From the IMG/VR virus record IMGVR_UViG_3300047157_000098, positions 5,640-69,639 of that record: a stretch of DNA of 64,000 nt. One strand, given 5' to 3'. A program made the translations under genes and the position numbers. The stretch is from a virus. The notes below the pieces were generated by a model. The model was not told where the DNA came from, did no database searches, and saw only the letters and a program-made list of their open reading frames with translations. Positions 32,567 through 62,250 of this stretch are shown piece by piece. Positions within the stretch are counted from its first letter, which is position 1; the number at the start of each line of letters is the position of its first letter.

Positions 32567-32594
32567 TATTATTACACGCTCTGTTTTAAATTTA
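32567..32594 (-). promoter_or_regulatory. late-class promoter heading the 32-kb structural arm
   Basis: TAAA-N14-TGTAATAATA; ATG at 32561. Confidence 0.75.
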
Positions 32595-32857: not shown

Positions 32858-32890
32858 ACATACTAAATACGAGACTAAATGGATAATATA
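32858..32890 (+). promoter_or_regulatory. early-class promoter 1
   Basis: ACATACTAAATACGA-GACTAAA-TGGATAATATA; one of five copies. Confidence 0.8.
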
Positions 32891-32916
32891 AATGTAAATA
32901 AAATCTATTATGAATA

Positions 32917-32974
32917 AGATATTGAGAGACAGTGTGGAATGGTTTCTGTGAGTTCGATTCTCACCTACTCATCT
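32917..32974 (+). ncRNA. mini tRNA-like RNA (T-arm containing)
   Basis: T-arm GTGAG-TTCGATT-CTCAC, flanking TGAG/CTCA pairing, no D or anticodon arm; first element transcribed from promoter 1. Confidence 0.4.
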
Positions 32975-32993
32975 AACAATTAAAATAATTAAA

Positions 32994-33128
32994 ATGAAAA
33001 GAAAGTTTCAACACTTTGCAATCAATGCGATATTGGTTTCGCTTGCAACACTAGCATTCACAGGAATAATAACTATTATGTATCACTTGGCTTTTAATAA
33101 TCCAACAATAACTTACGGCGGATGGTAG
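32994..33128 (+). CDS. 44-aa single-TM early protein
   Basis: Manual translation MKRKFQHFAINAILVSLATLAFTGIITIMYHLAFNNPTITYGGW. Confidence 0.6.
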   Translation: MKRKFQHFAINAILVSLATLAFTGIITIMYHLAFNNPTITYGGW

Positions 33129-33540
33129 AACTACTTGACAAAATAGCACAAGAAACATACGGTGAATTTGGATTCGCTACATGTACTGACGAGCAACAAC
33201 TAGAAATAATAAGTAATAATTTAACAACTAAATAATATGCAGTGGATTTTAACATGCGAAAACGGTAAGCAAATAGATATGTCAAGCGATATACTAAAGC
33301 AAATGGAAAGAAAAATAACAAGACAAGATGTTCTTGAAAGAATTGAGTTTTATAAATCAACTAATAAAAAATAATAATATGTATAGAAAATATCAAACTA
33401 ATCAACAAGCGTGGGATGAAGTGACACGTAACTACAATGAATCACTAAGACGAACAGAAATCTGTAAAGAAATGTTTGGTCAAGAAAATCTAAAAGGTTT
33501 AACAGATGAGCAAAGAGAATCATTCTGGAAAGCAGTATAA
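33122..33540 (+). CDS. three tiny early ORFs (33122-33235, 33237-33374, 33379-33540)
   Basis: MVELLDKIAQETYGEFGFATC.., MQWILTCENGKQIDMS.., MYRKYQTNQQAWDEV..; tightly packed with A-rich leaders. Confidence 0.55.
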
Positions 33541-33541
33541 T

Positions 33542-33572
33542 ACAATCTAAATACGAACTGAGTTGGATAATA
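33542..33572 (+). promoter_or_regulatory. early-class promoter 2
   Basis: ACAATCTAAATACGA-ACTGAGT-TGGATAATA. Confidence 0.8.
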
Positions 33573-33580
33573 ATATAAAT

Positions 33581-34921
33581 ATGAATATGAAAACATTTAA
33601 ACAAGTAAACAAAACTACCATCAGAGTAAAAGATGGCGACAACTACTCAACCTATAAAGGCTATGATATTGGCTCTTTACCTCCAACATTTGGCTTCTGG
33701 TTTAATCCAGAAACAGAGAAAGAAGGTATTGGTGAATGGTTTAACTACAAAGGTTTAACTTATATACAAAAATAATAATAATATGACTAAAAGAAAATAC
33801 TTTGACGATTTAACTCTCGAGGAGATGTTTAAATCACATGACTGGACTTATATGTACGCTGATGACAATAGATATTACACATCAGGTAGAAGACAGAAAG
33901 AATTGATAGATAATAAAATAGAACAATCAGGTGGATGGTCACAAGATATTCTTAAACTACACAACGCTCATTGCCCAAAACCAATGCAGATCAGTGAAGA
34001 ATGGCTAGAAAATCATTTACTAAAACAATAAATATATGAAGACTATATATAAAGGTGATGCTCGTTATGAAAAAATAAAAGAGCAGATGGATTTACTAAA
34101 TATAACTGATGTAAGTACTGAAAAACAAATTAAAAACGGTACAATAATCTGGAGATTACCATACAAACTAAGAGGTAATTACGTAGAATATGGTGCTTTC
34201 TCTACAGGTTATGTAAGAAATCAAGGTAATCAGTGTCATTCTAACTGGCAATGTAACAAAAGAGTCAAAAGTGAACCTCAATATTATCCTGACTATAAAT
34301 GGTGCGATAAAACAAATCAAAGCATAGCGACAGGTAAATTTAATAGATACTACAGTAGAATATGTGTTTTAATACCTACAGAAATAGATAGATTAGAGTA
34401 TATGATGAAATATATAGTTAAAAATGAGTTTGTCAAGCGTGCTAAAACTTTAGAAAGAGATTACATACCAAGATGGAAGTATGATTACTTAAAAAAAGAA
34501 AAAGTACAAGAAACTATCAACGAAGTAACATTAACAGTAAACGGACAAAGATATAATATAATATAATATGGAAAAAAGTAAATTAAAAGAACTATACTTA
34601 GAACACCACGGTTCTACACTAGATACAGTAGATTTTAAAGGTGGTTATGATTTTATAATGAATCAAGAATACACTGCAGATGGCTATGACTTATTTTTAT
34701 GTCATGACGGTAAATCTGCTGTTTGTTTAAGTGAAGATGTATATTACTACTCTCATGATTTAACAGATGTACTCAAAAATGCTATACACGGCGCCCAGTC
34801 TATATACTGTGGTGAAGAGATATATGATGAGTGTTATATTAATGATGAGTGGGAAGAATGGTGTCTTGAAGACGGATTAGTAGAGTATAATGACGAAGAC
34901 GAACTAGTTATTACAGACTAA
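33581..34921 (+). CDS. four early hypothetical proteins (33581/33587-33775, 33783-34031, 34036-34566, 34568-34921)
   Basis: Head-to-tail ORFs; 33783 has a HDW.Y.YADD motif; the TTG start at 33563 in the track lies inside the promoter. Confidence 0.65.
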
Positions 34922-34945
34922 ATACGATTACCATTGGATAATATA
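34913..34945 (+). promoter_or_regulatory. early-class promoter 3
   Basis: ACAGACTAAATACGA-TTACCAT-TGGATAATATA. Confidence 0.8.
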
Positions 34946-34957
34946 ATAAACGAATAT

Positions 34958-35170
34958 ATGAATTGTAAAAAATGTAACAATACAATACCTCAACAGCGGC
35001 TAGCATTTGGTTATACTTCCTGCGTTAAATGTAGCACTACAGAAGCTTATGGTTGTGTTAATATCACTTACCACAAAACTGGCAACACTATCCAAATTAT
35101 GCCAAAAACCCAAGCAGCTAGAATACGTAAGCTATCCGCTCGTAGAGGTTACGGAACATGTTTAAGATAA
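34958..35170 (+). CDS. DksA/TraR-type C4 zinc-finger protein
   Basis: CKKCNNTIPQQRLAFGYTSCVKC matches Cx2C-x3-IPxxRL-x-Cx2C. Confidence 0.7.
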   Translation: MNCKKCNNTIPQQRLAFGYTSCVKCSTTEAYGCVNITYHKTGNTIQIMPKTQAARIRKLSARRGYGTCLR

Positions 35171-35384
35171 TAATATGAAAGAATACTACGAATTTAATAA
35201 TGAACAAGAGTACGAAGAGTACGCCCAGTTAATGTGGTTAATAAATAATAACAAATGAAAGAATATACAGTAACATATCTACCTCATATGAGAGAAGACA
35301 AAGAGTGGATCAATGTAAACGCTAAGTCTGAAGAAGATTTAGTACTTAATTTTAAAGCAGGAGTAATATTAAATATAGAGTAAA

Positions 35385-36027
35385 ATGAAAGAAAATGTAA
35401 GAGTAAATGGATGGGACTTTGAATATGTAAGTCAAGATGATGGCAATGACCAGTTCTATCAGTGTAGAGGTGAGGTAATGTATGATGACGAGCATGACCA
35501 AATACCTGAACCAGCGTTGTGGGATGCAGCGTTGAAGTTAGAAAAAGAATTAACTGAAGAAGGTTATAGATGTGATGCAAATCACAGTGAAAAAGGATGG
35601 GTTGAAGTATCAATATTTGGCAAGATATGAGTAAGTTAGACGAAATAATAGACAAAGAGTTAAAGATATTTGATAGATCAATAGTGGCTACACCAAGTGA
35701 TAGAGAAAAATTAGATGCCTTCGCGGCGGCTAATCATGGAGTTAATGATTTTTTATTAACGCAGATGGCTGTACAGTTGGGTTACGTAACAGCTTTAAAA
35801 TTTATAAAAGAAGAAGTAAACATATGAGTGATTCAGTAAAGAAATACTACGAAATGGTAGAAGACGGGGAAATAAAAGTAAACCCTGATAAAGTAAATCC
35901 TAGGTTAAGGTGTGAACAAAAAATACTAGACATAGGTCATGCTTTAAAAGAGTACGAAGGTAACGTCATAGATAAATGGCAGGTTATCAACAAGATAGAA
36001 GAAATAATGTCAAGGCTAGACGAGTAG
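35385..36027 (+). CDS. three small early hypothetical proteins (35385-35630, 35627-35827, 35824-36027)
   Basis: ATGA-coupled ORFs from the ORF track. Confidence 0.65.
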
Positions 36028-36096
36028 CTTAATTAGATGAGTTTGAAGTTGATCATGAAAAATAGGTTATATGATGGATTCTCATACATAAGTGAA

Positions 36097-36209
36097 TAGC
36101 TAGCAAAGGAAACTAGGTCAGGCAAAACATTGTACAAGTAAACGTTTTCACGAGCTTGTAGTGTAGATGGGCTACCGACGGGTATGAGGTTCGAATCCTC
36201 ACTAGTTAC
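36097..36209 (+). ncRNA. tRNA-like RNA of about 113 nt with non-canonical core
   Basis: Acceptor stem TAGCTAG/CTAGTTA, T-arm TGAGG-TTCGAAT-CCTCA, variable stem TACC-GACG-GGTA, long central hairpin TACAAGT..GCTTGTA. Confidence 0.55.
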
Positions 36210-36240
36210 AAACTAAATACGAATACAGTTGGATAATATA
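36208..36240 (+). promoter_or_regulatory. early-class promoter 4
   Basis: ACAAACTAAATACGA-ATACAGT-TGGATAATATA. Confidence 0.8.
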
Positions 36241-36254
36241 ATTAAATAATAAAT

Positions 36255-36745
36255 ATGATAAAAATTAAAACCGTCTACGACAAGTTATTGCCCGACGTTA
36301 AAACAGAATTGCAGTCAAGTGCTAGAAAGTATAATTCTGCTAAAAGGTTAAAGTATACACTAATGTCTAAAACTATGTGGCATGAACTTACAATAGATGA
36401 GATGAGAGATCTTATGACTTATGGTAACTTAACTACTTACAAACTAGATCCATTTAGCTTTATGTATGGTGATAATATACTTGTAAAATGAGCAAGTTAA
36501 ATATACCAAAATGGTTTAAAGGTAGCGTGTATAACGAAGGTGATACCGTTACCAATCCATTCAGCGGCGAAAGCTATGAACTAACTGGCTTAGAGTTAAG
36601 TATTTACGACTTTATAATGGGTTGTCAATACGTATTTGAAGTAGCACCAAAAGCTGCAACGCCTCAACAAATCAAAGACTTTCATAAAGGTATTGATTGG
36701 TTTAGAAAACATAACACTAAAGCTTATATGGTATTATTAGATTAA
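36255..36745 (+). CDS. two early hypothetical proteins (36255-36491, 36488-36745)
   Basis: Coupled ORFs downstream of promoter 4. Confidence 0.65.
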
Positions 36746-36757
36746 TGCTATACACAT

Positions 36758-36830
36758 TGCGCGGTAGAGCAGCTGGTAGCTCGTTGGGTTCATATCCCAA
36801 AAGTCGGAGGTTCGAGTCCTCCCTGCGCAC
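36758..36830 (+). tRNA. tRNA-Met(CAT), initiator type
   Basis: Cloverleaf TGCGCGG/CTGCGCA, D-arm GAGC/GCTC, anticodon stem TTGGG/CCCAA (three G-C pairs), loop TT-CAT-AT, T-arm GGAGG-TTCGAGT-CCTCC; CCA not encoded. Confidence 0.9.
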
Positions 36831-36844
36831 CTAAATAATAATAT

Positions 36845-37189
36845 ATGAATACAATAGAATTTAATAAACTAGTACACGAACTAAACGAGTACTCAAACAA
36901 TGTAATGTCAAAGAAAGGTCCTGAGTATACTCAAGAATCAGCAGACGTTTTAAACAATTTTAAAGCAACAGCAAAAAGAATAGGTATATCACCGTTAAAA
37001 GTATGGTCTATATTCTTTGACAAACAAGTGCAATCAATAATGTCTCATGTCAATAATCCCAATCTTGACAAGGCAGAAAGCTTAGAATCTAGGTTCGCAG
37101 ATGTTATAAACTACTGCAGATTAGGTCACGCTTTATTTACAGAAAGAGAATCGGGAATAATTAAAGAAGTATTTAACAATGATAACTAA
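36845..37189 (+). CDS. DUF1599 / nucleotide-modification-associated all-alpha protein
   Basis: KKGPEY...D.LNNF...DK...ES...RFADVINY pattern. Confidence 0.6.
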   Translation: MNTIEFNKLVHELNEYSNNVMSKKGPEYTQESADVLNNFKATAKRIGISPLKVWSIFFDKQVQSIMSHVNNPNLDKAESLESRFADVINYCRLGHALFTERESGIIKEVFNNDN

Positions 37190-37358
37190 AAATGAATTTC
37201 AATCGTACGTAGACGTACAAATGTCAGGTGTAACTAATATGTTTGATGTAAGAACAGTAGAGTCTATATCTGGTCTTTCAAAAGCTAAGATTATGGATAT
37301 AATGAAAAACTATAGTCAATATGACAAAACTTTTAAACTAGAAGAAAATGTCGACTAG
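37179..37358 (+). CDS. 59-aa protein with SGVTNMFD motif (DUF5049-like)
   Basis: Manual translation MITKNEFQSYVDVQMSGVTNMFDVRTVESISGL.. Confidence 0.6.
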   Translation: MITKNEFQSYVDVQMSGVTNMFDVRTVESISGLSKAKIMDIMKNYSQYDKTFKLEENVD

Positions 37359-37809
37359 AAACCTAACAATGGTAGTGGATAGGAAATATGCAGAGAACCA
37401 TGAACTTGGTTTTGCTGCTCCTCCCACATTTTTTCATGACAATAGCTATGTAAACATGTATTTACATCATGATGGCTATCCTGAATGGCAAGGTGTGCAA
37501 ATAGCAAATTGGCTTCATGCTAACCCAACTAGTGACGGTAGCCGTTTAGCTGCTAAGTTAGTTCATGATATGTACTATGACAGTTGCTATTTATATCCTG
37601 ATCACTCTAATATAGATCATCACTACACTTATATTATATTCTCAGGCAAACAAGACAGATGGGTTAGTTGTTATGACAATTACTCGAACGAAACTGTATT
37701 TGTACTAAAACCAGAGAAGATTATATCTAAATATATGAGAGATATGGAGTACACTGATTTTTCAAACAATGAAACTAGAAAAAAACAAAGAGAAGTTTAT
37801 ACAAACTAA
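37348..37809 (+). CDS. conserved phage protein (MSTR..YxHxDGYP family, function unknown)
   Basis: MSTR N-terminus and MYLHHDGYPEWQG motif. Confidence 0.65.
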   Translation: MSTRNLTMVVDRKYAENHELGFAAPPTFFHDNSYVNMYLHHDGYPEWQGVQIANWLHANPTSDGSRLAAKLVHDMYYDSCYLYPDHSNIDHHYTYIIFSGKQDRWVSCYDNYSNETVFVLKPEKIISKYMRDMEYTDFSNNETRKKQREVYTN

Positions 37810-37833
37810 ATACGAACGTAGTTGGATAATATA
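37801..37833 (+). promoter_or_regulatory. early-class promoter 5
   Basis: ACAAACTAAATACGA-ACGTAGT-TGGATAATATA; ATG follows 7 nt after TAAT. Confidence 0.8.
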
Positions 37834-40218: not shown

Positions 40219-40846
40219 AGACAGAAATATAAAGTGGCTAAATAATAGACGCATCGTCTACAGGAGAGATCCTACTACCGATGTACCTACTATTGAGACA
40301 GAACAATATAAATACTACGCTGATGGTACATACCAATGTTATCACTTGTTTAATAGCAAGGCTAAGATAACTACGTATAAATCGTTAAAGTGGCATATGC
40401 TTGTATTGTATTATCTAAATGAAGATACAACACACGACTCGACTGGAGAAGGAGGTAGTATTGAACGAGTGTTTAGATTTATAGCTGATAAAGAAAATGG
40501 GTTTGTTACATTTTTTATTAAAAGCAGAATATTAGATGAAATGATAGAAAACGTTATGACAATAGGTGGTGAACCACCAGCTAATAAAATGCGTAAAGTA
40601 GTATTTAAACCCTACAATGGACTGAGTTTAAGTGAAAAACTTAGCATAGTAGGTAAATTAATAGGTAGATCTTCAGAAGTAGATGAAGAAGCAATCTACC
40701 AAACAATGTTAGATTTAAATGAGTTTGGAAAAAAGATTACAATAAGTAGGATAGCTGGTTTGCTCAACTGTTCTACTAGAACAATATATAGAAATATGAG
40801 CAATCAACTTAAAAACGAAAAAAAAATATTAAATGAAGAAATATAA
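40211..40846 (+). CDS. HTH DNA-binding protein, possibly replication initiator
   Basis: C-terminal KITISRIAGLLNCSTRTIYRNM HTH; layout resembles plasmid Rep C-terminal regions. Confidence 0.6.
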   Translation: MSQDRNIKWLNNRRIVYRRDPTTDVPTIETEQYKYYADGTYQCYHLFNSKAKITTYKSLKWHMLVLYYLNEDTTHDSTGEGGSIERVFRFIADKENGFVTFFIKSRILDEMIENVMTIGGEPPANKMRKVVFKPYNGLSLSEKLSIVGKLIGRSSEVDEEAIYQTMLDLNEFGKKITISRIAGLLNCSTRTIYRNMSNQLKNEKKILNEEI

Positions 40847-41597
40847 TATACCCGGTTATATAATCGATAAAGAAGATTTAAAACAATCGTTAGCTAGAAT
40901 ACCTGAACATGGAACAGACTATAATTTATATACTAGAGATCAACTTATAATTAAGTTTTGTCCATTGGCAGAGAATATAGCTAGAAAATTTTCAACTAGT
41001 CAACAAGCCTCTGGTGTTATGAGTATAAGAGATTTAATACAAGAGGGTAGAGCTGGCTTAACTAAAGCTGTTGATAGAATTGATTGGGAAAGACTAAATG
41101 AATCTGAAGATAAAGAAAAAACAATAAAAAGTTTTTTATCAAAGAGAATACGAGGTGCTATCCGTAGATCAATAGATATTAACAGAGGTGACATACGTAT
41201 ACCTGAACATAAATTAAACGAAATACGTAGAAACTTTGGCAAGGATAAAAAAATGGTGTCGATGTTTTTTAATAGTATATTTTTAAGCATAGATGATAAA
41301 CCTAATAATGATGAGAACATGGTATATCAGATACCAGACAAGTCTGAGCCTTATAATATGCAATTACTTAATATATATTTAACTGGTTTGTTAAAGAAAC
41401 ATTTAGATGATAGAGAGTATAATGTATTGAGACTTAGCTATGGATTAGATTGTGACAAGCATTCAGCAAAGCAAATTGCAACTGAATTAAACATCGAAGG
41501 ATCTAGCTCTTACGTGAGAGTTTCACAGCTAAAAAAGCAAGCGGTAGATAAGTTAATAGAAAACGTAGACCACTCGCAAGTGCTTGATTACCTATAA
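40833..41597 (+). CDS. phage sigma-70-family RNA polymerase sigma factor
   Basis: Region 2 PLAENIARKF..DLIQEGRAGLTKAVDRID..RIRGAIRRSID..IRIP; region 4 LDDREYNVLRLSYGL..KQIATEL..VRVSQLKKQAVDKL. Confidence 0.92.
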   Translation: MKKYNIPGYIIDKEDLKQSLARIPEHGTDYNLYTRDQLIIKFCPLAENIARKFSTSQQASGVMSIRDLIQEGRAGLTKAVDRIDWERLNESEDKEKTIKSFLSKRIRGAIRRSIDINRGDIRIPEHKLNEIRRNFGKDKKMVSMFFNSIFLSIDDKPNNDENMVYQIPDKSEPYNMQLLNIYLTGLLKKHLDDREYNVLRLSYGLDCDKHSAKQIATELNIEGSSSYVRVSQLKKQAVDKLIENVDHSQVLDYL

Positions 41598-41617: not shown

Positions 41618-41645
41618 TAAATTTACAAATCTATATGTAATTATA
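41618..41645 (+). promoter_or_regulatory. late/middle-class promoter for the replication operon
   Basis: TAAA-N14-TGTAATTATA immediately after the sigma gene. Confidence 0.7.
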
Positions 41646-52454: not shown

Positions 52455-55400
52455 TTACTTGATTATTTTCTTTTTTATTGTTTTCTTCTTTAAAGTTTTC
52501 TTTCTAATTACACCATCAGCTTTATCTTTAGCTTTTTCCACATCGTAATTCTCTATACCAACATCCCAAGTTGTCCAGCCTAATAACGTTGCTATTCTTT
52601 GCCAAGAAGAGTTTCTTTCATCTAAAGATGCTCTCACATTTCTAACCTTCTTTATAGCTCTATCTAAGGGTAGGTTTGTAACAGCAGATACTATGTTTCC
52701 AAAAGCATCATAAGTTGGATTATCAATATCAAATCCCATACCTTTAGGCCCAAACATTATTTTTTTATTAAACTTATATGTTTGTATTGCTGAGTATAGT
52801 TTTCTTAGTTTGGAGCCGATTGGTGGAGACAGGTTCACTGCTTCTATTACAGTATAAGTATGGTCTGCATTCCAACCTTTTTTCTCTTGCTCTATAAACT
52901 TCATTATCACATTTTTAATAGTAGAAACCGCAGCGCCGTATAAACCAGAACCTCTTAATATAGTGTCAGACATGCTATTAACTATTCTACTTTTCTTCTT
53001 GTCTAGCTTCAAATCCTCCTCTTCTTCTTCATCAGCAAACATCATGCCGAACAATGCGTTTTGTAAAGCAGCAAACACAAAGTTTTGTACAGCTCCATAG
53101 TATATAATTTTAGAAACGTTTGTTTTAAAATCACCCCTACCATTAACTAAGTCTCTCATAGCTTTTTTGGTTAACCTCATGTACTGCATTGGTGTGTTTT
53201 GGAAAGCTAATATAACTCTACCAAGTGGTCCAGCTTGTTGTTGTGATATTAAATCTGGTCTACTAGACTGCTGAGATTCTTCCGACACTTGAGCAAAGTC
53301 TTCAAAAGCTTTAGCCTCAGCTTCTTTCTTGCTTAAACCATTTTTTAAGTATGTGTTAACTCTATTCCTATACATAGATGCTCCACCAATAGCTATAGCA
53401 AAACTATCCGCTATTTGAGTAGGTGTAAAACCAAGTTTTAGTATATAAGCTAATACAGCACTTGCTTTGTTTTTAGCTCCCGAAGCAGCGTTAGCTATTT
53501 CTGCTTCATTAACATCTGTTTGTAAACCACTACGTCTTTGTTTTAACATGTCTGAATTAAATATCATAGCGAAGTCAGACCAAAACTGTTTTTGATTAGC
53601 AAAGGCTATAGCAGCTTTGATAGGGTTATTGTCTGACCAGTTAACAAAGTTTACAGCTGATAGTGTTTGTAATATAGCTGATCTCATATTCAAGAACATA
53701 ATAGCTCCAACAGAGTTGTTTACCCAATTCATCCAACGGTTAACAATTCTATTTTTACCAAACGATCTATTAGTACCGTTTTTCATACGGTATATCATAT
53801 CCTCTAAGGCTTCTCTAAAGTTACTACCATATATAGCCTCTATTTTATTTAAATTCTTTTTAGAAAATACAACATCTACATTTTCTGAAAACTCTTTTAG
53901 AAACTTTTTTCTACCTATTTTTTCAGAAATATCGTTTAAATCGGAAGCTATAGTTCCAGCTAACCAACTATCTGAGGGTGATATATAACCATCTTCTAGT
54001 TTAGTTATTCTACTTAAAGTATCTGCAAAAGCAACCATTTCTTTATTGCTGGAGACTATTTTAACTAACTCAACTTGGTCTTGTTTTGATAAACCAGGTA
54101 TTGGCATACCAAATTTACTCCACAAATAAACTCTTATAGCTTGCCCGTAAGTAAAATCCTTGTACTCTGTTTTCTTTCCAAGTAATTTTCTAACTTGTGG
54201 AAACGCTTTTCTCAAACCTAACCAGTCATTTGATATGCTTTGTTTAGCTACGTTTAAAGCAGCCATACCTCTAGCAAAAGGCTTTATTAAGTGCTTTTGG
54301 AAAAACTCCATTTGAGCTTCTCCTTTCTTACCTTTTGATAAAAAGTCGTACAATAAACCTATAAAATCCTCAGCTGACGGTGGTAAAAAATACTTCCATT
54401 TCGATCTTTTGCTTTGTCCTATTCTTTGTGCCGCTGCCTGAGAATACTCTTTAAAAGCCTCAACACCTTCAGATTCTTCTATTATATTGTTAAACTCAGA
54501 ATCTAGATCTTCTATAGAGAATTTAGCTTGCTGAACATCAGACTTAACATCAACAGTATCTAACACCTCTTGAACAGCTTTAACATTCTTATAAGCGTCG
54601 TCAGCAAAGTAAAAGTTATTATAACCCTCTGCTGCTTTGTTTAAAATCCAATCAGCTTTAGCTTTAGCCGTACCATCCGCTAAACCAGTTATATTGTTAA
54701 GAGGAATATTTAAACCTATACCTTTTAAAAACTTATGTATAGCATTTGCAGCCTCTGCTGGTCTAGCTGTTAAAACAAATATGTTTTTGTTACCGAACTT
54801 ACCTTGTCTTTTAGTGGCTAGATCAAACAGTGGACCTTTTCTACCATCTATAACCTTATTAAACTCACTAAAGTCATAAGAAGCTCCTTTCTCTGTTAAT
54901 TCAGCATCTCTTTTAGCAAACTCTGTAGCGTTTATCTTCATGACCTTACCGTTAGGCATGGTGACTATTATCTGGCTGTTAGTAACAGCTAGTGTGTCGT
55001 CAAAATCAAAAACACTTATACCTTTGTCAGGTTGGTTCATAGACCTTGCGTTGTCCATAGCTTTATCAGCTATACTAAGTTTTGTTACTTCTAGTGTTTT
55101 TTCTGCTACCTTGTCTCTAAATTCATTTGTTTTTTGAGATTCATTAGAGTATGCGTCAATATTGGTTCCACCAACAACATATATATCAGTTTTCTTGTTT
55201 TTAGGTAAAGCTTTTAGTCTACCTTTTTTAGACTGGTTTGTTTTACCTGCTAAATCTACTATATCCAAGTTATAATTTATGTCTAACCACTGTATGTGTT
55301 CAGCTAAGATGTCAGATACTTGGTTTATAGTTTCTGCTTTAGTTAGATTTTTAACATCCACCGAGGCAAGCTTTAACATTGTGTTTGAATTAGGAGATAA

Positions 55401-58400
55401 GTGTTCTCCTTTTTCCGATAACTTCTTTATAGCAGCATCTTCTATTTGTTGTAACGTAGCGTCTGGATTGCTATTTTTTGTTATTTTAAAAACTAAACTC
55501 CAACCAGGAGTTTGTTTCCAAGAATTAACATAAGCATCTCTAGCTTCTTTTTCGGTTTTATACTTACCATTTTTAGTAACGTTGGGTTTACTGTCCATAC
55601 CAAACTGAACTCCATCTTCAAACCTAATCAAATCAAGTCTTGTTAAAGCTCTAAGTCCATTAACAGCATTAGTTTGAAGCTGAAAGAAATGAAGCATAGA
55701 TGATTCAGATATTTTACCAGAACTGTACATATCTAAAACAGTACTTACAATGTGCTCAGCTAAAAGTAGGTTAGCTATGTTTGCTTTTTCTAACCTAGGT
55801 AGTATTGTCTCTTCAAAAAGTTTTATTTTCTCGTCTCTTTTGATATCCATTTTTTGAATATCTTTTATTTCTTGCATTATACCAGAGCCTGAATTCATAG
55901 GGGCAACATCTTCCATTACCAAAGCCTCTGGCAAAGTTGATTCTGTTTTAATACTTGTAGCTTTTAAAAAATCTTTATAAAAAGCACCCTCACTTCCATC
56001 ATTCTTTTTCTTTGCTGGATCTAAAACTCTATTTATATAACCCAAACCTTCAATGAATCTAGGAATATTAATAACAGCAGCACCTAGTACAGAAGCTAGT
56101 TTAAGCATGTCTTTTGAAAAAGCTTTTAAATCTTTTATAGAGCTAGTTTTTGCTTTTAAAGCGGACGTGTATTCAAACCTGCCTTGCTTTTTTATACCAG
56201 CTACAAAACCGTGGGCTTTAGCGTCGTTTATTAAACCAATGTCATATAGATATCTAACTACTTTAGGAACTTTAACTCCGTACTTAGAGATATCTTGCAT
56301 GTTACCATCTTCGTCTATTAAACTATCAAGATCCTTTTTTTGCACTTCTCTAACAAGCTTTGAGACCTCACTCATCTCTTGTTTAGTCAGGTCGAAGTCA
56401 ACGTCATTCTCACTTAAAGCAAACTTAGTGTTGGGGTCTCTGTTTATTTGTTTAGCTGTTTCCTCTACGTAATTATCAGCTTGCTCTCTTTCTAGTATCT
56501 CGTCAATAGCCTTTCTTCTTTCTTGAACATCTGGGTCTTTAACTACATCCATAGTAGCATCAAAAGCTAATTCTTCAGCTAAAGCCTCTGCTAAAGCATC
56601 TTTTCTAGTACCTTTAGTTGACGCTCCAACTTTGCTACCTATAAAATAAGATAACCACTCTGCTTTTGCTATCTTTCTTTTAGCAAAAATAGCGTTACCT
56701 TGTGGAGTTTTTTCTCTTAGCTGTTTACCATCTTTATCAAGCACTGGCTCTGCAAACTGTCTAAATCTTTTGTTTATAATCTCTTGTGATAATTTAGCGT
56801 ATATAGCTTCAAAATTATCTCTTAAAAACTGTTCTTTAATAGCTCTAGTACCTATAAGGTTTGCCATAGCTGTTTTCAACTCTACTCTAAAAGCTTTTTG
56901 CAGAGCTTTTTTAAACTCTTTGCTAGTTACAGCAGGTAGTCTAGTTCCAAACGTTTTTACAACAGCTCTTTTTATCTTGTTATAAAGATCGCTACCTTCT
57001 TCTATGTTTAGCTGTTTTCGTAATGATGGTTGTTCTACAGTCTCTTCAACAACCGTCTCCTCAGCCACAACACCTTTTGCTTCAGACACATCAGACGTAA
57101 ACTCTTTTTCGAACATGCTATCAGCTATCTCTATAGCTCTAGATGCTAGGTATTTATTTATGTAAGCAGCTAACGGCACGCCACTATCAGGATTGTACTT
57201 CATAACAAGGCCGTAAACACCTCTATTATCTATAAGCAACTGCTCTATAAAATCGTCTTTATAAGTTGTATAACCAGGCACGTCTCTATATTTACCAGCT
57301 ATTTTGTTGACCATACCTCTATATGCTTCTGTTATCTCAAAAGCCGCGTCTTTACCGCTCTTATTATATAGGTCTTGAACTTCGTTACTTTTTTCAAAAG
57401 CTCTAGATTCTTTTTTAACAGTTTCACTAACCTCTGTTTTAGCTTTTATAAGCTTGCCTTTAACTTTACCAGCAGCTACAGTGCTTATTCCTTTTCCAAG
57501 TTTACCTTTGGCTATACCAGTATTGTAGTCTTTTATAAAATTATAAACATCTCTACCATTGTTGAACTTAACAGCCACGCCTGTTGACTGCAATATTTTT
57601 CTTATTACATCACCAATCTTTGTGAATATATTTTCATTAAACTTTATATCTCCAGTTGCTAAAGCATCAGAAAACAAAGTAAGGATCTCTTCTGCAGCAT
57701 CTCCTTCTTTGTACTTACCCTCTTTATATAGTTTTTGATACTGCTCAATTCTTTTCTTGAATCTACTATTTTGAATTTGCTTAGCGTCTATATTGTTTAA
57801 GTAACCCATTAGTGACTTACCTAAAGCTTTTTGTGTGTCAGGGCTAAATTTAACAGCTTCAAATAAAACAGCATGAAGAAACTCATGTGCAGCTATATTT
57901 ACGTTGCCTTGTTTAGCAGCGACATCTTTGTTTATAAATATTATTTGTTTACCAGTGGCTGGGTCTTGAATAGCAAAACCTTGTTGCTTAGCTTCAGTTC
58001 TTAATTCTTTTAAGCTTTTTTTATTAGGATTATCATCATCAAGCTTATCATTCATCTCCTTGAGTCTCTTTAATATTGACTCAGTGTCGTTCTCAACTTG
58101 AAAACTAACATCATCTCCAAACATGTTTGTTGCTTCTTTAGCCAGCATTTCCATTTGCTCGTCAATCTTTTCAGCATTTTCTTTTTCAATGTAAGGATTT
58201 ACAATTTCGTTTTTCTTTGATAAAGAGTCTTGGTACTTAGCTTTTAATTTATCTAATTCAACTTTCTTTTCTTCTTTCGATAATGAATCATCGTTTTTAA
58301 TATCTTCAGCTTGGTTGACTAAGTTGTGTCTTACTCTAGCTTCTTCTACAAGAGCTTCTTTTTCTTCAGGAAGCATCTCGTCTATTCTTTTTATATCTCT

Positions 58401-60341
58401 AGCTAGTAACTCGTTGTTTTCTTTAACCAAGTTTGTTAGCTCTTCTTCGTAGTGACTTCTGTTTTTGCCATCTAAAGGTTTTGATAAAAGCTCATTAATT
58501 TCTTTTATCCTTTGAGCATTTTTACCTATTGTAGCTTTTGTAGCACCATGCTGAAAACCTGTTAAAATATTTATACCTAAGCCAGGTGTTTTATATACAA
58601 CTCCCGACATCCAAACACCACTAACAAAAGACTCTTTTAAACCTTCAGACCAGTGAACATCTTTACCTAAAACATACTTATCAGCTATGTTTTCTGAAAA
58701 TTGAGAAACCATTTCAGTAAAACCTTCTTCAATAGGATCGTATACTAACTGACCTAAACCCTTTTGTGTAGTTAAATTTCTAGTTAACCAAGCTTTAAAA
58801 CCTGTTTGTATTTTGTCTTGTACACCTAAAGCGTTTTTATACTTACTTAGTTGACCTAGCGATATTTTTTCACTAAGAGCCTCTGCTAAACCCGTAACGG
58901 TTGCTACCGTGTACATTTGTAAAGGTGAGTATTTAGCACCGTAAAGATCTATTTCTTTTTGCATAGACCTAAACTTCCCACCTGCTGACGTTACACCTAG
59001 TATTGGTAAAGCGTAAGGTCCTGTTGTTAACATTATAGCGGTGTTAGGTAACTGGCTGGCTGTTGTAAAAGAAGCCCATTCTCCAAAATCTTCCCAAGAT
59101 TGTATATCGCTAAGCTCTTGCGGTTTTTCTAAACCATTTCTAACTTGATCTAGAAAACCATCAGCTTTACCGATAACATTCTTTCTCATTTCATCTTTGT
59201 ACTCAGCGTATCGTACTACTGGTTTTAAGAAATCCGGAAGCCCATCATCTAAACTAGAGTCTATAGCTTGTATTAACCTAGCTGGGTCTGTAAATTTTCT
59301 AATATATCTGTACTCAGCTTCCTCAAGATTTAAACCTATTTCAGAAAGAGCTATAGCTGTTTGCCCAACAACATTTGTTCCCCATTGATAATTTCTATCT
59401 ACAATATCTAGATATTTAGTAAGCTCTTCGTTACTATCTCCAATATCTTCTTGTTGGCTCTGTATGTTTAATATACTACCGATATGCTTCTCACCTTCTT
59501 TCGCGAGTAAATCGTAAGCTTCTTTACCTTTGTTAAACTCCTCTTGAGTGGTGTAATCTTGATTTCTTATAGCCTCCAACCTAGCAGCAATGTCTTCTAG
59601 CGACTTGGTATGGTATTTAAACCTAATTATATTGTTTTCAGTTTTTTTATTAAGACCAGATGTTATCTCTTCAAGTTCATCCGCTTTAGCGTTTTGATTA
59701 GATCCTTTCATAAACCAGGTCCAATCTAAGTCTTCAACAGATTCTTCTACATTTCTTTCCCAGCTAGAGTTTCTAAGATCTTCTCTATATAAATCTGTAG
59801 CTACTTCATTTGCGTTAGCAAGGTCGTCTTGAGACAACTCCTCTACTTTAACATCCTTTTCTTTTGCTATCTTTTTTTTGGCCTCAGGTATGTATTTTTC
59901 TTGAGCATCTAAATAGCTTTGCTCTTCGTTACTAATAATTGAGTTTTCTTCTTCGTCATCAAAATACTCTACAGCGTTTATAACTTTATCAACAACCCAT
60001 TTACCAGCTCCGCTATCCCAAAACCAACTAGTGGGTGAACCAGGGGTGCTTGTTAAAGCTGTCTGAACAGTTTTAGATGCAAGCTTTTGAGAAATCTTTC
60101 CATCTTGAACTTTATAGTTAACCATCTCGCTAGCTTTCCTATCATTGTTTTCAGTTTGAAGATCTGTTTCGTCGTGAGAGTTTGATTCTGTGACTAGTTC
60201 GTCTATTCTACGAGAAGTTTCTGAAGACAACTCCTCAGAGCTATAAGGAACAGCTTGAGGATATTTTTGTAGAAATAAATCTTGTTTAGCGGGGTTTATA
60301 CTGTGTACTTTGCCGTCAACAATGAACTTTAGTTTATCCAT
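52455..60341 (-). CDS. giant multidomain virion (ejection/polyvalent) protein: zincin + sigma-like + HAD domains
   Basis: 2628 aa; AHEFLH (about aa 819), sigma region-2-like segment (aa 998-1074), HAD FDFDDT..TAR..K..ADD (aa 1754-1940), helical C-terminal domain. Confidence 0.75.
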   Translation of the reverse strand: MDKLKFIVDGKVHSINPAKQDLFLQKYPQAVPYSSEELSSETSRRIDELVTESNSHDETDLQTENNDRKASEMVNYKVQDGKISQKLASKTVQTALTSTPGSPTSWFWDSGAGKWVVDKVINAVEYFDDEEENSIISNEEQSYLDAQEKYIPEAKKKIAKEKDVKVEELSQDDLANANEVATDLYREDLRNSSWERNVEESVEDLDWTWFMKGSNQNAKADELEEITSGLNKKTENNIIRFKYHTKSLEDIAARLEAIRNQDYTTQEEFNKGKEAYDLLAKEGEKHIGSILNIQSQQEDIGDSNEELTKYLDIVDRNYQWGTNVVGQTAIALSEIGLNLEEAEYRYIRKFTDPARLIQAIDSSLDDGLPDFLKPVVRYAEYKDEMRKNVIGKADGFLDQVRNGLEKPQELSDIQSWEDFGEWASFTTASQLPNTAIMLTTGPYALPILGVTSAGGKFRSMQKEIDLYGAKYSPLQMYTVATVTGLAEALSEKISLGQLSKYKNALGVQDKIQTGFKAWLTRNLTTQKGLGQLVYDPIEEGFTEMVSQFSENIADKYVLGKDVHWSEGLKESFVSGVWMSGVVYKTPGLGINILTGFQHGATKATIGKNAQRIKEINELLSKPLDGKNRSHYEEELTNLVKENNELLARDIKRIDEMLPEEKEALVEEARVRHNLVNQAEDIKNDDSLSKEEKKVELDKLKAKYQDSLSKKNEIVNPYIEKENAEKIDEQMEMLAKEATNMFGDDVSFQVENDTESILKRLKEMNDKLDDDNPNKKSLKELRTEAKQQGFAIQDPATGKQIIFINKDVAAKQGNVNIAAHEFLHAVLFEAVKFSPDTQKALGKSLMGYLNNIDAKQIQNSRFKKRIEQYQKLYKEGKYKEGDAAEEILTLFSDALATGDIKFNENIFTKIGDVIRKILQSTGVAVKFNNGRDVYNFIKDYNTGIAKGKLGKGISTVAAGKVKGKLIKAKTEVSETVKKESRAFEKSNEVQDLYNKSGKDAAFEITEAYRGMVNKIAGKYRDVPGYTTYKDDFIEQLLIDNRGVYGLVMKYNPDSGVPLAAYINKYLASRAIEIADSMFEKEFTSDVSEAKGVVAEETVVEETVEQPSLRKQLNIEEGSDLYNKIKRAVVKTFGTRLPAVTSKEFKKALQKAFRVELKTAMANLIGTRAIKEQFLRDNFEAIYAKLSQEIINKRFRQFAEPVLDKDGKQLREKTPQGNAIFAKRKIAKAEWLSYFIGSKVGASTKGTRKDALAEALAEELAFDATMDVVKDPDVQERRKAIDEILEREQADNYVEETAKQINRDPNTKFALSENDVDFDLTKQEMSEVSKLVREVQKKDLDSLIDEDGNMQDISKYGVKVPKVVRYLYDIGLINDAKAHGFVAGIKKQGRFEYTSALKAKTSSIKDLKAFSKDMLKLASVLGAAVINIPRFIEGLGYINRVLDPAKKKNDGSEGAFYKDFLKATSIKTESTLPEALVMEDVAPMNSGSGIMQEIKDIQKMDIKRDEKIKLFEETILPRLEKANIANLLLAEHIVSTVLDMYSSGKISESSMLHFFQLQTNAVNGLRALTRLDLIRFEDGVQFGMDSKPNVTKNGKYKTEKEARDAYVNSWKQTPGWSLVFKITKNSNPDATLQQIEDAAIKKLSEKGEHLSPNSNTMLKLASVDVKNLTKAETINQVSDILAEHIQWLDINYNLDIVDLAGKTNQSKKGRLKALPKNKKTDIYVVGGTNIDAYSNESQKTNEFRDKVAEKTLEVTKLSIADKAMDNARSMNQPDKGISVFDFDDTLAVTNSQIIVTMPNGKVMKINATEFAKRDAELTEKGASYDFSEFNKVIDGRKGPLFDLATKRQGKFGNKNIFVLTARPAEAANAIHKFLKGIGLNIPLNNITGLADGTAKAKADWILNKAAEGYNNFYFADDAYKNVKAVQEVLDTVDVKSDVQQAKFSIEDLDSEFNNIIEESEGVEAFKEYSQAAAQRIGQSKRSKWKYFLPPSAEDFIGLLYDFLSKGKKGEAQMEFFQKHLIKPFARGMAALNVAKQSISNDWLGLRKAFPQVRKLLGKKTEYKDFTYGQAIRVYLWSKFGMPIPGLSKQDQVELVKIVSSNKEMVAFADTLSRITKLEDGYISPSDSWLAGTIASDLNDISEKIGRKKFLKEFSENVDVVFSKKNLNKIEAIYGSNFREALEDMIYRMKNGTNRSFGKNRIVNRWMNWVNNSVGAIMFLNMRSAILQTLSAVNFVNWSDNNPIKAAIAFANQKQFWSDFAMIFNSDMLKQRRSGLQTDVNEAEIANAASGAKNKASAVLAYILKLGFTPTQIADSFAIAIGGASMYRNRVNTYLKNGLSKKEAEAKAFEDFAQVSEESQQSSRPDLISQQQAGPLGRVILAFQNTPMQYMRLTKKAMRDLVNGRGDFKTNVSKIIYYGAVQNFVFAALQNALFGMMFADEEEEEDLKLDKKKSRIVNSMSDTILRGSGLYGAAVSTIKNVIMKFIEQEKKGWNADHTYTVIEAVNLSPPIGSKLRKLYSAIQTYKFNKKIMFGPKGMGFDIDNPTYDAFGNIVSAVTNLPLDRAIKKVRNVRASLDERNSSWQRIATLLGWTTWDVGIENYDVEKAKDKADGVIRKKTLKKKTIKKKIIK

Positions 60342-62222: not shown

Positions 62223-62250
62223 TATAATTACACTTTTTTATGTTTATTTA
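62223..62250 (-). promoter_or_regulatory. late-class promoter for the ejection-protein operon
   Basis: TAAA-N14-TGTAATTATA; ATG at 62205. Confidence 0.7.

What the first reader, a model, noticed from the sequence alone, without database searches (positions are those of the whole stretch)
56418..57410. Sigma-factor-like domain hidden inside the giant virion protein: an injected sigma factor?
Seen: aa 998-1074 of the 2628-aa protein read AFEITEAYRGMVNKIAGKY..KDDFIEQLLIDNRGVYGLVMKYNPDSGVPLAAYINKYLASRAIEIA. By eye this aligns with sigma-70 region 2 (L...Y..LV..IA.KY..EDL.Q....GL..AV.KFDP.RG..F.TY....IR..I). It starts a segment of about 330 aa, sigma-sized, bounded by KES (aa 977) and KFA (aa 1306). 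Established: N4 and crAss-like phi14:2 inject a virion RNA polymerase to start early transcription. No RNAP motif is visible here. Inference: this phage injects a sigma factor that reprograms host core RNAP to its non-host early promoters.
Basis: partly seen in the sequence, partly recalled or inferred. Interest (0 to 1): 0.92.

Follow-up and report, generated by a model that had tools for sequence, protein, structure and literature searches.

The report
Sigma-2-like domain in giant phage protein
A giant late protein of a marine Flavobacteriia-type phage really does contain a diverged copy of the RNA-polymerase-docking domain of bacterial sigma factors, but only that domain and not a whole sigma factor, so an injected transcription factor is possible and not shown.

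Summary
A family profile of aa 975-1310 matched the PDB at E<=10 with 22 sequences, 21 of them sigma factors, all in region 2 (best E 6.1e-4). An AlphaFold model (pLDDT 84.9) put sigma domain-2 chains in ranks 1-15 of 48,161 representatives (Z 8.6-6.5).

Single-sequence tests are weak or negative. Pfam gives no hit on the window protein, and 2 of 31 relatives hit Sigma70_r2 below its cut-off.

The rest of the "sigma-sized" segment is a basic 207-aa domain. It is modelled with confidence (pLDDT 92.3) but has no structural relative (best Z 4.7). No region 4 was found.

The module is the conserved core of a large, uncultured family of 2000-3500-aa proteins (488 cluster representatives). These carry an invariant HExxH...E motif and sit at the end of the structural operon. 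The phage also has a normal stand-alone sigma, as do 5 of 5 relatives checked.

A non-Bacteroidota-type early promoter (TAAATACGA-N7-TGGATAAT) occurs 5 times here and recurs in 5 of 5 relatives, upstream of that sigma gene.

Virion packaging, RNAP binding (complex test: weak support only) and promoter recognition are all inferred. The scan has no note of this module on other DNA.

The parts
52455..60341 (-). Giant ORF of 2628 aa, the last large gene of the late/structural minus-strand operon
   Evidence: Upstream genes match PHROG 'virion structural protein' families, and an endolysin lies downstream at 51130-51585.
57417..58124 (-). Zincin-like region (aa 740-975), with HEFLH at aa 819-823 (nt 57873-57887) and E885
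   Evidence: H819, E820, H823 and E885 are invariant in 19 full-length relatives. The region's profile hits Elemovirus gp18 at its HExxH with E 5.6e-12. It has no PDB sequence match, so the assignment rests on the motif only.
57102..57404 (-). Sigma-70 domain-2-like helical domain (aa 980-1080, which is model residues 6-106)
   Evidence: PDB profile hits; fold search; Pfam Sigma70_r2 below its cut-off in 2 of 31 relatives and in P0084; model pLDDT 82-90 per 10-residue block.
57036..57092 (-). Acidic linker predicted to be disordered (aa 1084-1102)
   Evidence: pLDDT under 50 for model residues 110-128. Its length varies in alignment A1.
56412..57032 (-). Basic domain 2 (aa 1104-1310) of unknown fold, ending in the conserved KF[SA] motif
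   Evidence: Model pLDDT 92.3, pTM 0.87. No PDB match by sequence, Foldseek or VIA-align (best Z 4.7). Median pI 9.46 and net charge +8 over 34 sequences.
54522..55082 (-). HAD-phosphatase-like cargo segment (aa 1754-1940; motifs FDFDDT, LTAR, FADD read by eye)
   Evidence: Motifs read in the translation. About 45 of 150 relatives cover this stretch. Not confirmed by Pfam or the PDB.
52458..54509 (-). Conserved C-terminal region (aa 1945-2628), function unknown
   Evidence: Covered by about 105-110 of 150 relatives, with many invariant residues. The Atlas's nearest named clusters are LPD39 and LPD38, which is a lead only.
40833..41597 (+). Stand-alone phage sigma factor of 254 aa (region 2 plus region 4)
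   Evidence: A counterpart occurs in 5 of 5 related complete phage records at E<=1, over the Pfam cut-off in 3 of 5.
32863..37830 (+). Five copies of the early-promoter-like motif CTAAATACGA-N7-TGGATAAT, at 32863, 33547, 34918, 36213 and 37806
   Evidence: Five exact matches against 0.02 expected. The copies were also found as a repeat family. The motif recurs in 5 of 5 related phages.

Best explanation
SHOWN. Aa 980-1080 of the giant protein form a highly diverged homologue of sigma-70 domain 2. In bona fide sigmas this part docks on the RNA polymerase beta' clamp helices and opens the -10 element (established knowledge, recalled). A disordered acidic linker joins it to a basic, compact 207-aa domain of unknown fold. 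This two-domain module follows an invariant HExxH...E motif. It is the conserved core of a large family of 2000-3500-aa proteins from uncultured viral contigs, which have variable middle 'cargo' and a conserved C-terminal region of about 680 aa. The gene closes the late/structural operon.

INFERRED. The protein is a polyvalent protein in the sense of Iyer et al. 2017: made late, packaged, and delivered with the DNA. Its sigma-2-like module, free or still tethered, captures host core RNA polymerase at time zero. It helps load the polymerase on the conserved, non-host-type early promoters (TAAATACGA-N7-TGGATAAT), with the basic domain as the candidate reader of the upstream box. Transcription from those promoters then produces the phage's own stand-alone sigma, which would take over the later promoters.

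The module is a sigma-2-only, gp55-like minimal factor or RNAP tether. It is not a complete sigma factor.
For: (1) Homology. Profile A1 against the PDB gave 21 sigma factors among 22 sequences at E<=10, all through region 2, best E 6.1e-4. Profile A3, built from independent viral loci, kept sigma factors at ranks 1-2 (E 0.0049, 0.041). Pfam Sigma70_r2 was the only family hit on the 1923-aa relative P0084, and at the right place (E 0.0034, 17.6 bits). It hit 2 of 31 members of A1.

(2) Fold. The model has pLDDT 84.9. VIA-align against 48,161 chains put sigma chains, judged by entry title, in ranks 1-15. Examples are 6pmj_F (Z 8.6, rmsd 3.5, 84 aligned) and 1sig_A (Z 8.0, rmsd 2.4, 86 aligned, 22% identity). 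About 30 of the 50 rows shown are sigma chains.

(3) Family and context. There are 488 representatives at E<=0.001, nearly all 2000-3500 aa. Both domains were detected in 95 of 151 proteins. HExxH...E is invariant in 19 of 19. Virion-structural PHROG families lie upstream and an endolysin downstream. The syntenic 3694-aa 'structural protein' gp18 of a Flavobacterium podovirus shares the zincin-like region (E 5.6e-12).

(4) A time-zero problem exists. The early motif occurs 5 times against 0.02 expected. It recurs in 5 of 5 related genomes (2-8 copies; the backwards control gave 0-1), always on the strand of, and upstream of, the stand-alone sigma gene. The Bacteroidota-type promoter pattern is not enriched: 5 against 4.2 expected, and 94 against 91 for the -7 box alone. 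TerL relatives are Flavobacteriia phages in 86 of 87 records.

(5) Domain 2 is basic (median pI 9.46) and the sigma-2-like domain acidic.

(6) Complex test of the sigma-2-like domain (A3) with residues 150-450 of Flavobacterium johnsoniae RpoC. The verdict was 'weak support': score 0.60, best of 3 controls 0.00. The mark was reached by 58 of 80 solved complexes and 2 of 110 mismatched pairs. A score of 0.60 or under, however, was seen in only 7 of those 80 solved complexes and in both mismatches that passed. The runs agree in at least 70% of contacts and the partner's pLDDT is at least 79. Sigma/beta' complexes are solved, so this pass may only reflect likeness.
Against: The window sequence alone matches no sigma model. 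No relative reaches Pfam's cut-off of 24 bits. hhalign of A3 against five stand-alone sigmas of this phage group gave only 14.7% probability, though in the right register. Foldseek found no match at E<=0.001. The Z values near 8 are in the range the tool calls 'middling' for helical domains.

No region 4 was detected, and domain 2 has no known fold.

In the alignment some positions that sit at core-binding or melting residues of sigma-70 hold other residues here. Which residues those are is recalled, not tested.

Virion location has no direct evidence. No deposited phage carries the module (tblastn, no match at E<=1 in 50,697 records). The 25%-identical stretch to the MS-verified phi18:3 gp123 lies in aa 368-666; phmmer's bias filter dropped that match, and gp123 has no HExxH or sigma-2 module.

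The phage has a complete sigma of its own, so an extra one is not obviously needed. A host sigma could read the early promoters.
Confidence: 0.45

Rival explanations
1. Complete injected sigma factor. The ~330-aa segment is released and acts as a self-sufficient sigma, with domain 2 standing in for sigma-4, and reprograms host core RNAP to the early promoters. This is the strong form of the best explanation.
For: The module has two domains and a flexible linker, like sigma-2 plus sigma-4. Domain 2 is basic. The K-[FL]-[SA] motif recurs at both module borders, next to an invariant HExxH...E motif, which would fit proteolytic release. The early promoter has two boxes and is conserved in 5 of 5 relatives. 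T4 gp55 is a precedent for a sigma-2-only factor (recalled); a chain of the T4 late-transcription complex, 7d7d_F, is rank 2 in the fold search.
Against: There is no region-4 signal in six frames apart from the stand-alone sigma. Domain 2 has no fold relative, and no sigma appears among its listed matches. Cleavage is not shown: K-[FL][SA] occurs 9 times in the protein, against about 5 expected from composition by my own rough estimate. Virion presence is not shown.
Confidence: 0.25
2. Decoy or inhibitor. The sigma-2-like domain occupies the beta' clamp helices and displaces host sigma, shutting off host transcription (or parking RNAP), without directing initiation itself. A host factor reads the early promoters, and the phage's own sigma reads the later ones.
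For: The domain-2 fold and the region-2.2-like block are the best conserved part. Several positions aligned to sigma-70's promoter-melting aromatic residues hold other residues here (residue roles recalled). The phage already has a full sigma. The complex test gave weak support for docking: score 0.60, best control 0.00, with the caveats given under the best explanation.
Against: A blanket block of the clamp helices would also block the phage's own sigma, and this phage has no detected polymerase of its own. The conserved pairing with a basic domain (95 of 151) is left unexplained.
Confidence: 0.15
3. Exapted fold with no RNAP role. An ancient sigma-2-derived helical domain now serves as a structural, packaging or DNA-end-binding part of a large internal or ejection protein, or acts only late inside the infected cell.
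For: The divergence is extreme: 8-23% identity to sigma chains in the top 15 rows, and no Pfam-level match on the window protein. The gene sits among structural genes. Fifteen of 151 relatives keep domain 1 without a detectable domain 2, and 41 the reverse, so the pair is not obligatory at this sensitivity.
Against: The conserved columns fall on the block that aligns with the most conserved part of sigma region 2. The conserved non-host early promoters still need a time-zero reader.
Confidence: 0.15

Closest known systems
Sigma-70 family domain 2 (Pfam Sigma70_r2, PF04542), for example in sigma-K/E, RpoS, sigma-28 and ECF sigmas
   Same: It has the same helical fold by fold search. It shares a conserved block, D/E-x-I-x-x-G-x-x-G-L...Y-x-P-x-x-G-x-x-L-x-x-Y, aligned in register with region 2 of solved sigmas.
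   Different: It is embedded at about aa 1000 of a 2628-aa protein rather than at the N-terminus of a 200-600-aa factor. No region 4 follows it. It stays below Pfam's cut-off. It is followed by a domain of unknown fold.
T4 gp55 (late sigma with a sigma-2-like domain only; function recalled)
   Same: It is a precedent that a lone sigma-2-like domain can direct host RNAP to a -10-type element. A chain of the T4 gp45-dependent complex (7d7d_F, Z 8.1, rmsd 2.7, 90 aligned) ranks second. That this chain is gp55 is inferred from the entry title.
   Different: gp55 is a small free protein made during infection that needs gp33 and the sliding clamp. Here the domain is part of a giant late protein.
Polyvalent proteins of phages and conjugative elements (Iyer et al. 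2017, PMC5512222; abstract and searched passages seen)
   Same: Both are giant multidomain proteins encoded beside virion genes, with a zincin-like HExxH...E metallopeptidase as hub and variable enzymatic cargo. The paper names 'jump-start transcription' as a theme and notes that N4-like virion RNAPs are fused to such peptidases.
   Different: The word 'sigma' does not occur in that paper's main text (its supplementary files could not be seen). No Pfam LPD family matches here. The LPD38/39 likeness of the C-terminus is only an Atlas lead.
Virion RNA polymerases (N4 gp50, crAss-like phi14:2 gp66; recalled)
   Same: The shared concept is a giant virion protein delivered with the DNA to start early transcription from non-host promoters.
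   Different: Those proteins are polymerases. Here there is no polymerase signal, and the module would have to use the host's core enzyme.
Flavobacterium phage Elemovirus gp18 (YP_010108995.1, 3694 aa, annotated 'structural protein')
   Same: It holds the same position at the end of the TerL-portal-structural operon and shares the zincin-like region (E 5.6e-12 around its HExxH at aa 1543).
   Different: Our profiles detect no sigma-2-like or domain-2 module in it.

Membership tests
Sigma-70 family, domain 2 (Sigma70_r2) | Significant sequence-profile match to region 2 | tested here: met
   A1 against the PDB: 21 of 22 sequences at E<=10 are sigma factors, best E 6.1e-4. A3 against the PDB: ranks 1-2 are sigma factors, E 0.0049 and 0.041, but only 3 of 21 rows are sigmas.
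Sigma-70 family, domain 2 (Sigma70_r2) | Score over Pfam's curated cut-off (24 bits) for PF04542 | tested here: not met
   The window protein and the segment gave no hit at E<=10. Two of 31 relatives hit, best E 7.4e-4. P0084 scored 17.6 bits.
Sigma-70 family, domain 2 (Sigma70_r2) | Sigma-2 helical fold | tested here: met
   VIA-align ranks 1-15 are all sigma chains, Z 8.6-6.5, with 80-105 residues aligned. The caveats are that the Z values are 'middling' for helical folds and that Foldseek found nothing at E<=0.001.
Sigma-70 family, domain 2 (Sigma70_r2) | Binds the RNAP beta' clamp helices | tested here: inconclusive
   The complex test gave 'weak support': score 0.60, best of 3 controls 0.00. 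A like complex is solved, so the pass may be from memory.
Sigma-70 family, domain 2 (Sigma70_r2) | Recognises and melts a -10 element | not testable with these tools
   All that is seen is a conserved Tyr aligned with the Tyr of the ...STY... block of solved sigmas, while neighbouring aromatic positions differ. Residue roles are recalled.
Complete sigma factor (sigma-2 plus sigma-4) | Region 4 helix-turn-helix detectable by sequence | tested here: not met
   Six-frame PF04545 on the whole 69.6-kb record at E<=10 hit only the stand-alone sigma gene. Pfam on the segment gave no r4 hit.
Complete sigma factor (sigma-2 plus sigma-4) | Sigma-3 or sigma-4 fold in the second domain | tested here: inconclusive
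   The domain-2 model has pLDDT 92.3. The best VIA Z is 4.7, no chain reaches Z>=5, and Foldseek finds none at E<=0.001. A family that is not listed is not thereby excluded.
Polyvalent proteins (Iyer et al. 2017) | Large multidomain protein with a zincin-like HExxH...E peptidase hub | tested here: inconclusive
   H819, E820, H823 and E885 are invariant in 19 of 19, but the region's profile finds no solved metallopeptidase and Pfam finds none.
Polyvalent proteins (Iyer et al. 2017) | Encoded among late or virion genes of a portal-terminase phage | tested here: met
   Portal, TerL, virion-structural PHROG families and an endolysin lie on the same strand block. The syntenic giant 'structural protein' of Elemovirus supports this.
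Polyvalent proteins (Iyer et al. 2017) | Packaged in the virion and delivered to the host | not testable with these tools
Virion RNA polymerase (N4-like or crAss-like) | Polymerase catalytic domain | tested here: inconclusive
   PF00940 gave no match in six frames, but the control rang in none of 14 genomes, so the test has no power. No Asp-x-Asp cluster stands out among the invariant residues of the C-terminal region (by eye). That region was not folded.

The most novel reading that the evidence does not exclude
These phages carry part of a sigma factor in the virion. The sigma-2-like domain plus its basic partner domain is cut out of the giant protein at the conserved K-F-S borders by the adjoining zincin. 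It enters with the DNA and turns host core RNA polymerase into a phage-specific holoenzyme that reads TAAATACGA-N7-TGGATAAT early promoters before any phage gene is expressed. This would be a third way to solve the time-zero transcription problem, beside virion polymerases and host-type early promoters.
Probability: 0.25. Interest if true: 0.9.

Novelty: new variant of a known kind. Interest (0 to 1): 0.72.

Why it matters
Phages that do not use host-type early promoters are known to bring a polymerase with them (N4, crAss-like, phiKZ; recalled). A delivered sigma-like module that borrows the host's core enzyme would be a cheaper solution and, as far as I could find, an undescribed one. Searches, and passages of PMC5512222, PMC7824862, PMC7318152 and PMC12282133, gave no case of a virion-borne sigma. 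Most subscription journals are outside that library.

The family is large: 488 clusters at 50% identity.

Even if the injected-sigma idea fails, three things stand. There is a new, very diverged branch of the sigma domain-2 superfamily inside giant phage proteins. There is a confidently modelled 207-aa domain with no known fold. And there is a conserved two-box early promoter that offers a direct biochemical test.

Tried and rejected
- **Single-sequence searches of the window protein:** Pfam and PHROGs on the whole protein found nothing relevant. Pfam at E<=10 on aa 975-1310 and on aa 975-1094 gave no sigma hit. phmmer of the segment against the PDB gave only a chance hit.
- **Foldseek against the PDB:** nothing at E<=0.001 for either model. 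Some sigma chains appear at E about 0.4-1.7 for the two-domain model.
- **Domain 2:** the PDB profile found nothing (best E 0.021, a ribosomal protein). VIA-align's best Z was 4.7. BFVD gave one hit, an uncharacterised protein of an uncultured virus. No sigma-3 or sigma-4, and no other named fold, appeared.
- **Profile-profile comparison:** hhalign of A1 against the phage's own sigma gave 5.8% probability. A3 against five such sigmas gave 14.7%. Both are weak but in the right register.
- **A more diverse sigma profile:** I tried to build one with the search for homologous proteins, but the 120 listed hits were all at least 68% identical to the query, all but one at 75% or more. I did not use them, and that search was poorly spent.
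- **Pfam on other relatives:** three divergent relatives that look sigma-like by eye (from L049, L054, L052) gave no sigma hit. Pfam on 19 full-length relatives gave nothing relevant.
- **Zincin region:** its profile against the PDB found no peptidase.
- **HAD segment:** nothing in the PDB.
- **Membrane insertion:** I looked for transmembrane helices in the C-terminal region to support a channel role. None is convincing (one window of 1.51 at aa 1412), and I dropped that idea.
- **Virion evidence by homology:** the tblastn match to the MS-verified phi18:3 gp123 covers only aa 368-666. phmmer's bias filter dropped that match, and gp123 has no HExxH or sigma-2 module. I do not count it as good evidence.
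- **Stand-alone form of the module:** the short hits P0088, P0067, P0020 and P0114 look like contig fragments, with no Met start or cut ends.
- **Bacterial genomes:** no relative of domain 2 was found in the species-representative genomes. The scan is limited to one peptide pattern.
- **Second promoter class:** GTGTAATWATA has 3 exact copies at operon heads, but with one mismatch it is not enriched (8 against 7.9 expected). I did not pursue it.
- **Polymerase:** the PF00940 search had no working control.
Full report
**1. The observation**

The window holds a 2628-aa ORF on the minus strand, 52455-60341. KES lies at aa 977 and KFA at aa 1306. The finding's coordinates, 56418-57410, cover about aa 978-1308.

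**2. Is the sigma likeness real?**

The window sequence on its own says nothing.
- Pfam and PHROGs on the whole protein gave no relevant hit.
- Pfam at E<=10 on the segment gave no sigma hit.
- phmmer against the PDB gave nothing useful.

The segment has many relatives. An exhaustive phmmer search found 488 cluster representatives at E<=0.001, and 97 at E<=1e-30. Nearly all place the match inside proteins of 2000-3500 aa.

I built a profile from the window segment plus 30 of these relatives (A1).
- It matched 22 distinct PDB sequences at E<=10. Twenty-one are sigma factors.
- All 21 align through region 2, over profile positions ~11-96.
- The best hits are pro-sigma-K (E 6.1e-4), a SigE N-terminal domain (4.1e-3) and an RpoS fragment (5.6e-3).

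A second profile of the N-terminal domain only was built from independent viral-contig loci, and it is less diverse (A3). It kept sigma factors at ranks 1 and 2 (E 0.0049, 0.041). Only 3 of its 21 rows were sigmas.

Scanned one by one, 2 of the 31 members of A1 hit Pfam Sigma70_r2, best E 7.4e-4. In the 1923-aa relative P0084, Sigma70_r2 was the only Pfam family found, at the expected place. It scored 17.6 bits, under the 24-bit cut-off.

hhalign against the phage group's own stand-alone sigmas was weak (5.8% and 14.7% probability) but in register.

**3. Structure**

AlphaFold2 with A1 gave a confident model (mean pLDDT 84.9) with two domains, residues 1-109 and 130-336, joined by a disordered linker at 110-128.

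Foldseek on the whole model found nothing at E<=0.001.

VIA-align against 48,161 representative chains put sigma factors in every one of ranks 1-15. All of them aligned to model residues ~6-106:
- sigma-28 complex 6pmj_F: Z 8.6, rmsd 3.5, 84 aligned;
- the T4 gp45-dependent complex chain 7d7d_F: Z 8.1;
- sigma-70 fragment 1sig_A: Z 8.0, rmsd 2.4, 86 aligned, 22% identity;
- then SigE, SigB, ShbA, AlgU, sigma-32, pro-sigma-K, RpoS, SigI6, sigma-S, SigA domain 2, a sigma-based scaffold, and CnrH.

About 30 of the 50 rows shown are sigma chains (chain identities are read from entry titles).

The tool warns that Z near 8 is middling for helical domains. What carries weight is the concentration of one family at the top and its agreement with the sequence profile. 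I take the sigma domain-2 homology as well supported, at about 0.9.

**4. What the rest of the "sigma-sized" segment is**

I modelled aa 1102-1310 alone, with 33 relatives taken from viral loci (A2). The model is very confident (pLDDT 92.3, pTM 0.87). It has no relative in any search I ran:
- PDB by profile: best E 0.021, a ribosomal protein;
- Foldseek against the PDB: none at E<=0.001;
- VIA-align: best Z 4.7, no chain at Z>=5;
- BFVD: one uncharacterised protein of an uncultured virus.

A six-frame Sigma70_r4 search of the whole 69.6-kb record hit only the separate sigma gene.

So the segment is a sigma-2-like domain plus an unknown domain. It is not a whole sigma.

The unknown domain is basic (median pI 9.46, net +8 over 34 sequences). 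The sigma-2-like domain is mildly acidic. That would suit DNA binding by domain 2, but this is inference.

**5. The protein and its family**

Coverage of the 150 relatives along the protein shows the following:
- a conserved core at aa ~750-1310;
- a conserved C-terminal region at ~1945-2620;
- a variable N-terminus;
- a variable middle at ~1310-1750;
- a HAD-like stretch (read by eye) covered by about 45 of the 150.

In 19 full-length proteins, H819, E820, H823 and E885 are invariant. This is the HExxH...E signature that Iyer et al. 2017 describe for the zincin-like peptidase hub of polyvalent proteins (PMC5512222, passages seen). The region's profile finds no solved peptidase, so the assignment rests on the motif.

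With HMMs of the two domains, 95 of 151 proteins have both, 41 have only domain 2 and 15 have only domain 1. Several "domain-2-only" proteins are fragments, or have an N-part that looks sigma-like by eye but matches no Pfam model.

K-[FL]-[SA] recurs at both borders of the module, in 8 of 19 sequences at ~974-979 and 14 of 19 at 1306. The motif is common, however (9 copies in this protein), and cleavage is untested.

**6. Genomic context**

The record is 69,639 bp. An ORF split across its two ends suggests a circularly permuted genome.

On the minus strand the order is:
- GroEL;
- two fibre-like giants;
- TerL;
- portal;
- four proteins of PHROG "virion structural protein" families, among them one of 1656 aa;
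- an Ig-domain protein;
- three small ORFs;
- the giant gene;
- a 105-aa ORF;
- an endolysin.

TerL relatives in GenBank are phages of Flavobacteriia in 86 of 87 records. In Flavobacterium podovirus elemoF, the same operon ends in a 3694-aa "structural protein", gp18. That protein shares the zincin-like region (E 5.6e-12) but has no detectable sigma-2 or domain-2 module.

No deposited phage has the module (tblastn, no match at E<=1 in 50,697 records). No species-representative bacterial genome has domain 2, though that scan was pattern-limited.

Virion location is therefore inferred from position, size and architecture. The match to the MS-verified phi18:3 gp123 covers only aa 368-666, and phmmer's bias filter dropped it.

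**7. The transcription programme**

The phage encodes a normal 254-aa sigma with regions 2 and 4, at 40833-41597 on the plus strand. Five of five related complete records do too, at E<=1 and over the cut-off in three. No polymerase was found, but that test had no working control.

CTAAATACGA-N7-TGGATAAT occurs five times, all on the plus strand, at 32863-37830. The chance expectation is 0.02. Each copy lies 10-25 nt before a start codon.

The same two-box motif, with up to 2 mismatches, occurs 2-8 times in each of the five related genomes. The backwards control gave 0-1. In each genome all copies lie on a single strand, the strand of that genome's sigma gene, and upstream of that gene; in 4 of the 5 they also sit within a few kilobases of one another.

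The Bacteroidota housekeeping promoter, as I recall it (TTTG-N17-23-TAnnTTTG), is not enriched: 5 against 4.2 expected. The -7 box alone gave 94 against 91.

So something present at time zero must read a conserved, non-canonical promoter before the phage sigma exists. That could be a host sigma or a delivered factor. The data do not decide between them.

**8. Docking test**

I tested the sigma-2-like domain (A3) against residues 150-450 of F. johnsoniae RpoC. The verdict was "weak support": score 0.60, best of 3 controls 0.00.
- The mark was reached by 58 of 80 solved complexes and by 2 of 110 mismatched pairs.
- A score of 0.60 or under was seen in only 7 of those 80 solved complexes, and in both mismatches that passed.
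- The runs agree in at least 70% of contacts, and the partner's pLDDT is at least 79.
- No interface was given.
- Sigma/beta' complexes are solved, so the pass may show likeness only.

**9. Reading**

The best-supported account has three parts.
- The protein is a polyvalent late protein, probably a virion protein.
- Its conserved core pairs a zincin-like motif with a sigma-2-like, RNAP-directed module.
- That module acts at the start of infection on host core RNAP, possibly at the conserved early promoters.

Shown: the homology, the fold, the domain layout, the family, the context and the promoter conservation. Inferred: packaging, delivery, processing, RNAP binding and promoter reading.

The rivals are a full injected sigma (the strong form), a clamp-helix decoy, and an exapted fold with no RNAP role.

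**10. Novelty**

Four full-text searches turned up no virion-borne sigma or sigma-like domain. Neither did the passages I read in PMC5512222 ("sigma" occurs 0 times in its main text), PMC7824862, PMC7318152 and PMC12282133.

I class this as a new variant of a known kind: a sigma domain-2 homologue in a new architectural and, possibly, functional setting.

Noticed in passing
window 32863-37830 (+); L063-L070: The two-box early motif CTAAATACGA-N7-TGGATAAT has 5 exact copies, each 10-25 nt before an ATG. It recurs in 5 of 5 related phage genomes, with TAAA(T/C/A)ACGA and (G/T)GATAAT variants.
   Followed up: partly
window 12222-12232, 32567-32577, 62223-62233 (all -); 41635-41645 (+): GTGTAATWATA sits at the heads of the minus-strand late operons, and with one mismatch just after the stand-alone sigma gene. 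It is a candidate second promoter class. It is not enriched once a mismatch is allowed (8 against 7.9 expected).
   Followed up: partly
L072 3-782 (-) and window 62595-63998 (-): A minus-strand ORF runs off the start of the record, and another runs in from its end. Joined, they would make a protein of about 727 aa with an Ig-like domain, so the 'linear' record is probably a circularly permuted complete genome.
   Followed up: no
window 56412-57032 (-): The 207-aa basic domain after the sigma-2-like domain is modelled at pLDDT 92.3 yet has no structural relative (best Z 4.7). It is a candidate new fold.
   Followed up: yes
window 54522-55082 (-): A HAD-phosphatase-like motif set (FDFDDT, LTAR, FADD) lies inside the giant protein and is covered by about 45 of 150 relatives. 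Neither Pfam nor the PDB confirms it.
   Followed up: partly
window 57410-57419 and 56418-56426 (-): The K-[FL]-[SA] motif is conserved at both borders of the sigma-2/domain-2 module in relatives (8 of 19 and 14 of 19). These are possible processing sites next to the HExxH motif.
   Followed up: partly
L074 19-11103 (NC_055853.1 gp18): The 3694-aa 'structural protein' of Flavobacterium podovirus elemoF sits at the syntenic position and shares the zincin-like region (E 5.6e-12), but not the sigma-2-like module.
   Followed up: partly
window 36186-36203 and 36807-36824 (+); near 32950 (+): T-arm-like GGTTCGA(A/G)TCC sequences occur in the early region, suggesting tRNA or tRNA-like genes between the early promoters. 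I did not scan for tRNAs.
   Followed up: no
window 40833-41597 (+): The stand-alone sigma has a very large number of close relatives in metagenomes. This phage group is abundant.
   Followed up: no
window 52458-54509 (-): The C-terminal 684 aa are highly conserved, with dozens of invariant residues, and have no Pfam family. The Atlas's nearest named clusters carry LPD39 (28% of members) and LPD38, which is a lead only.
   Followed up: partly
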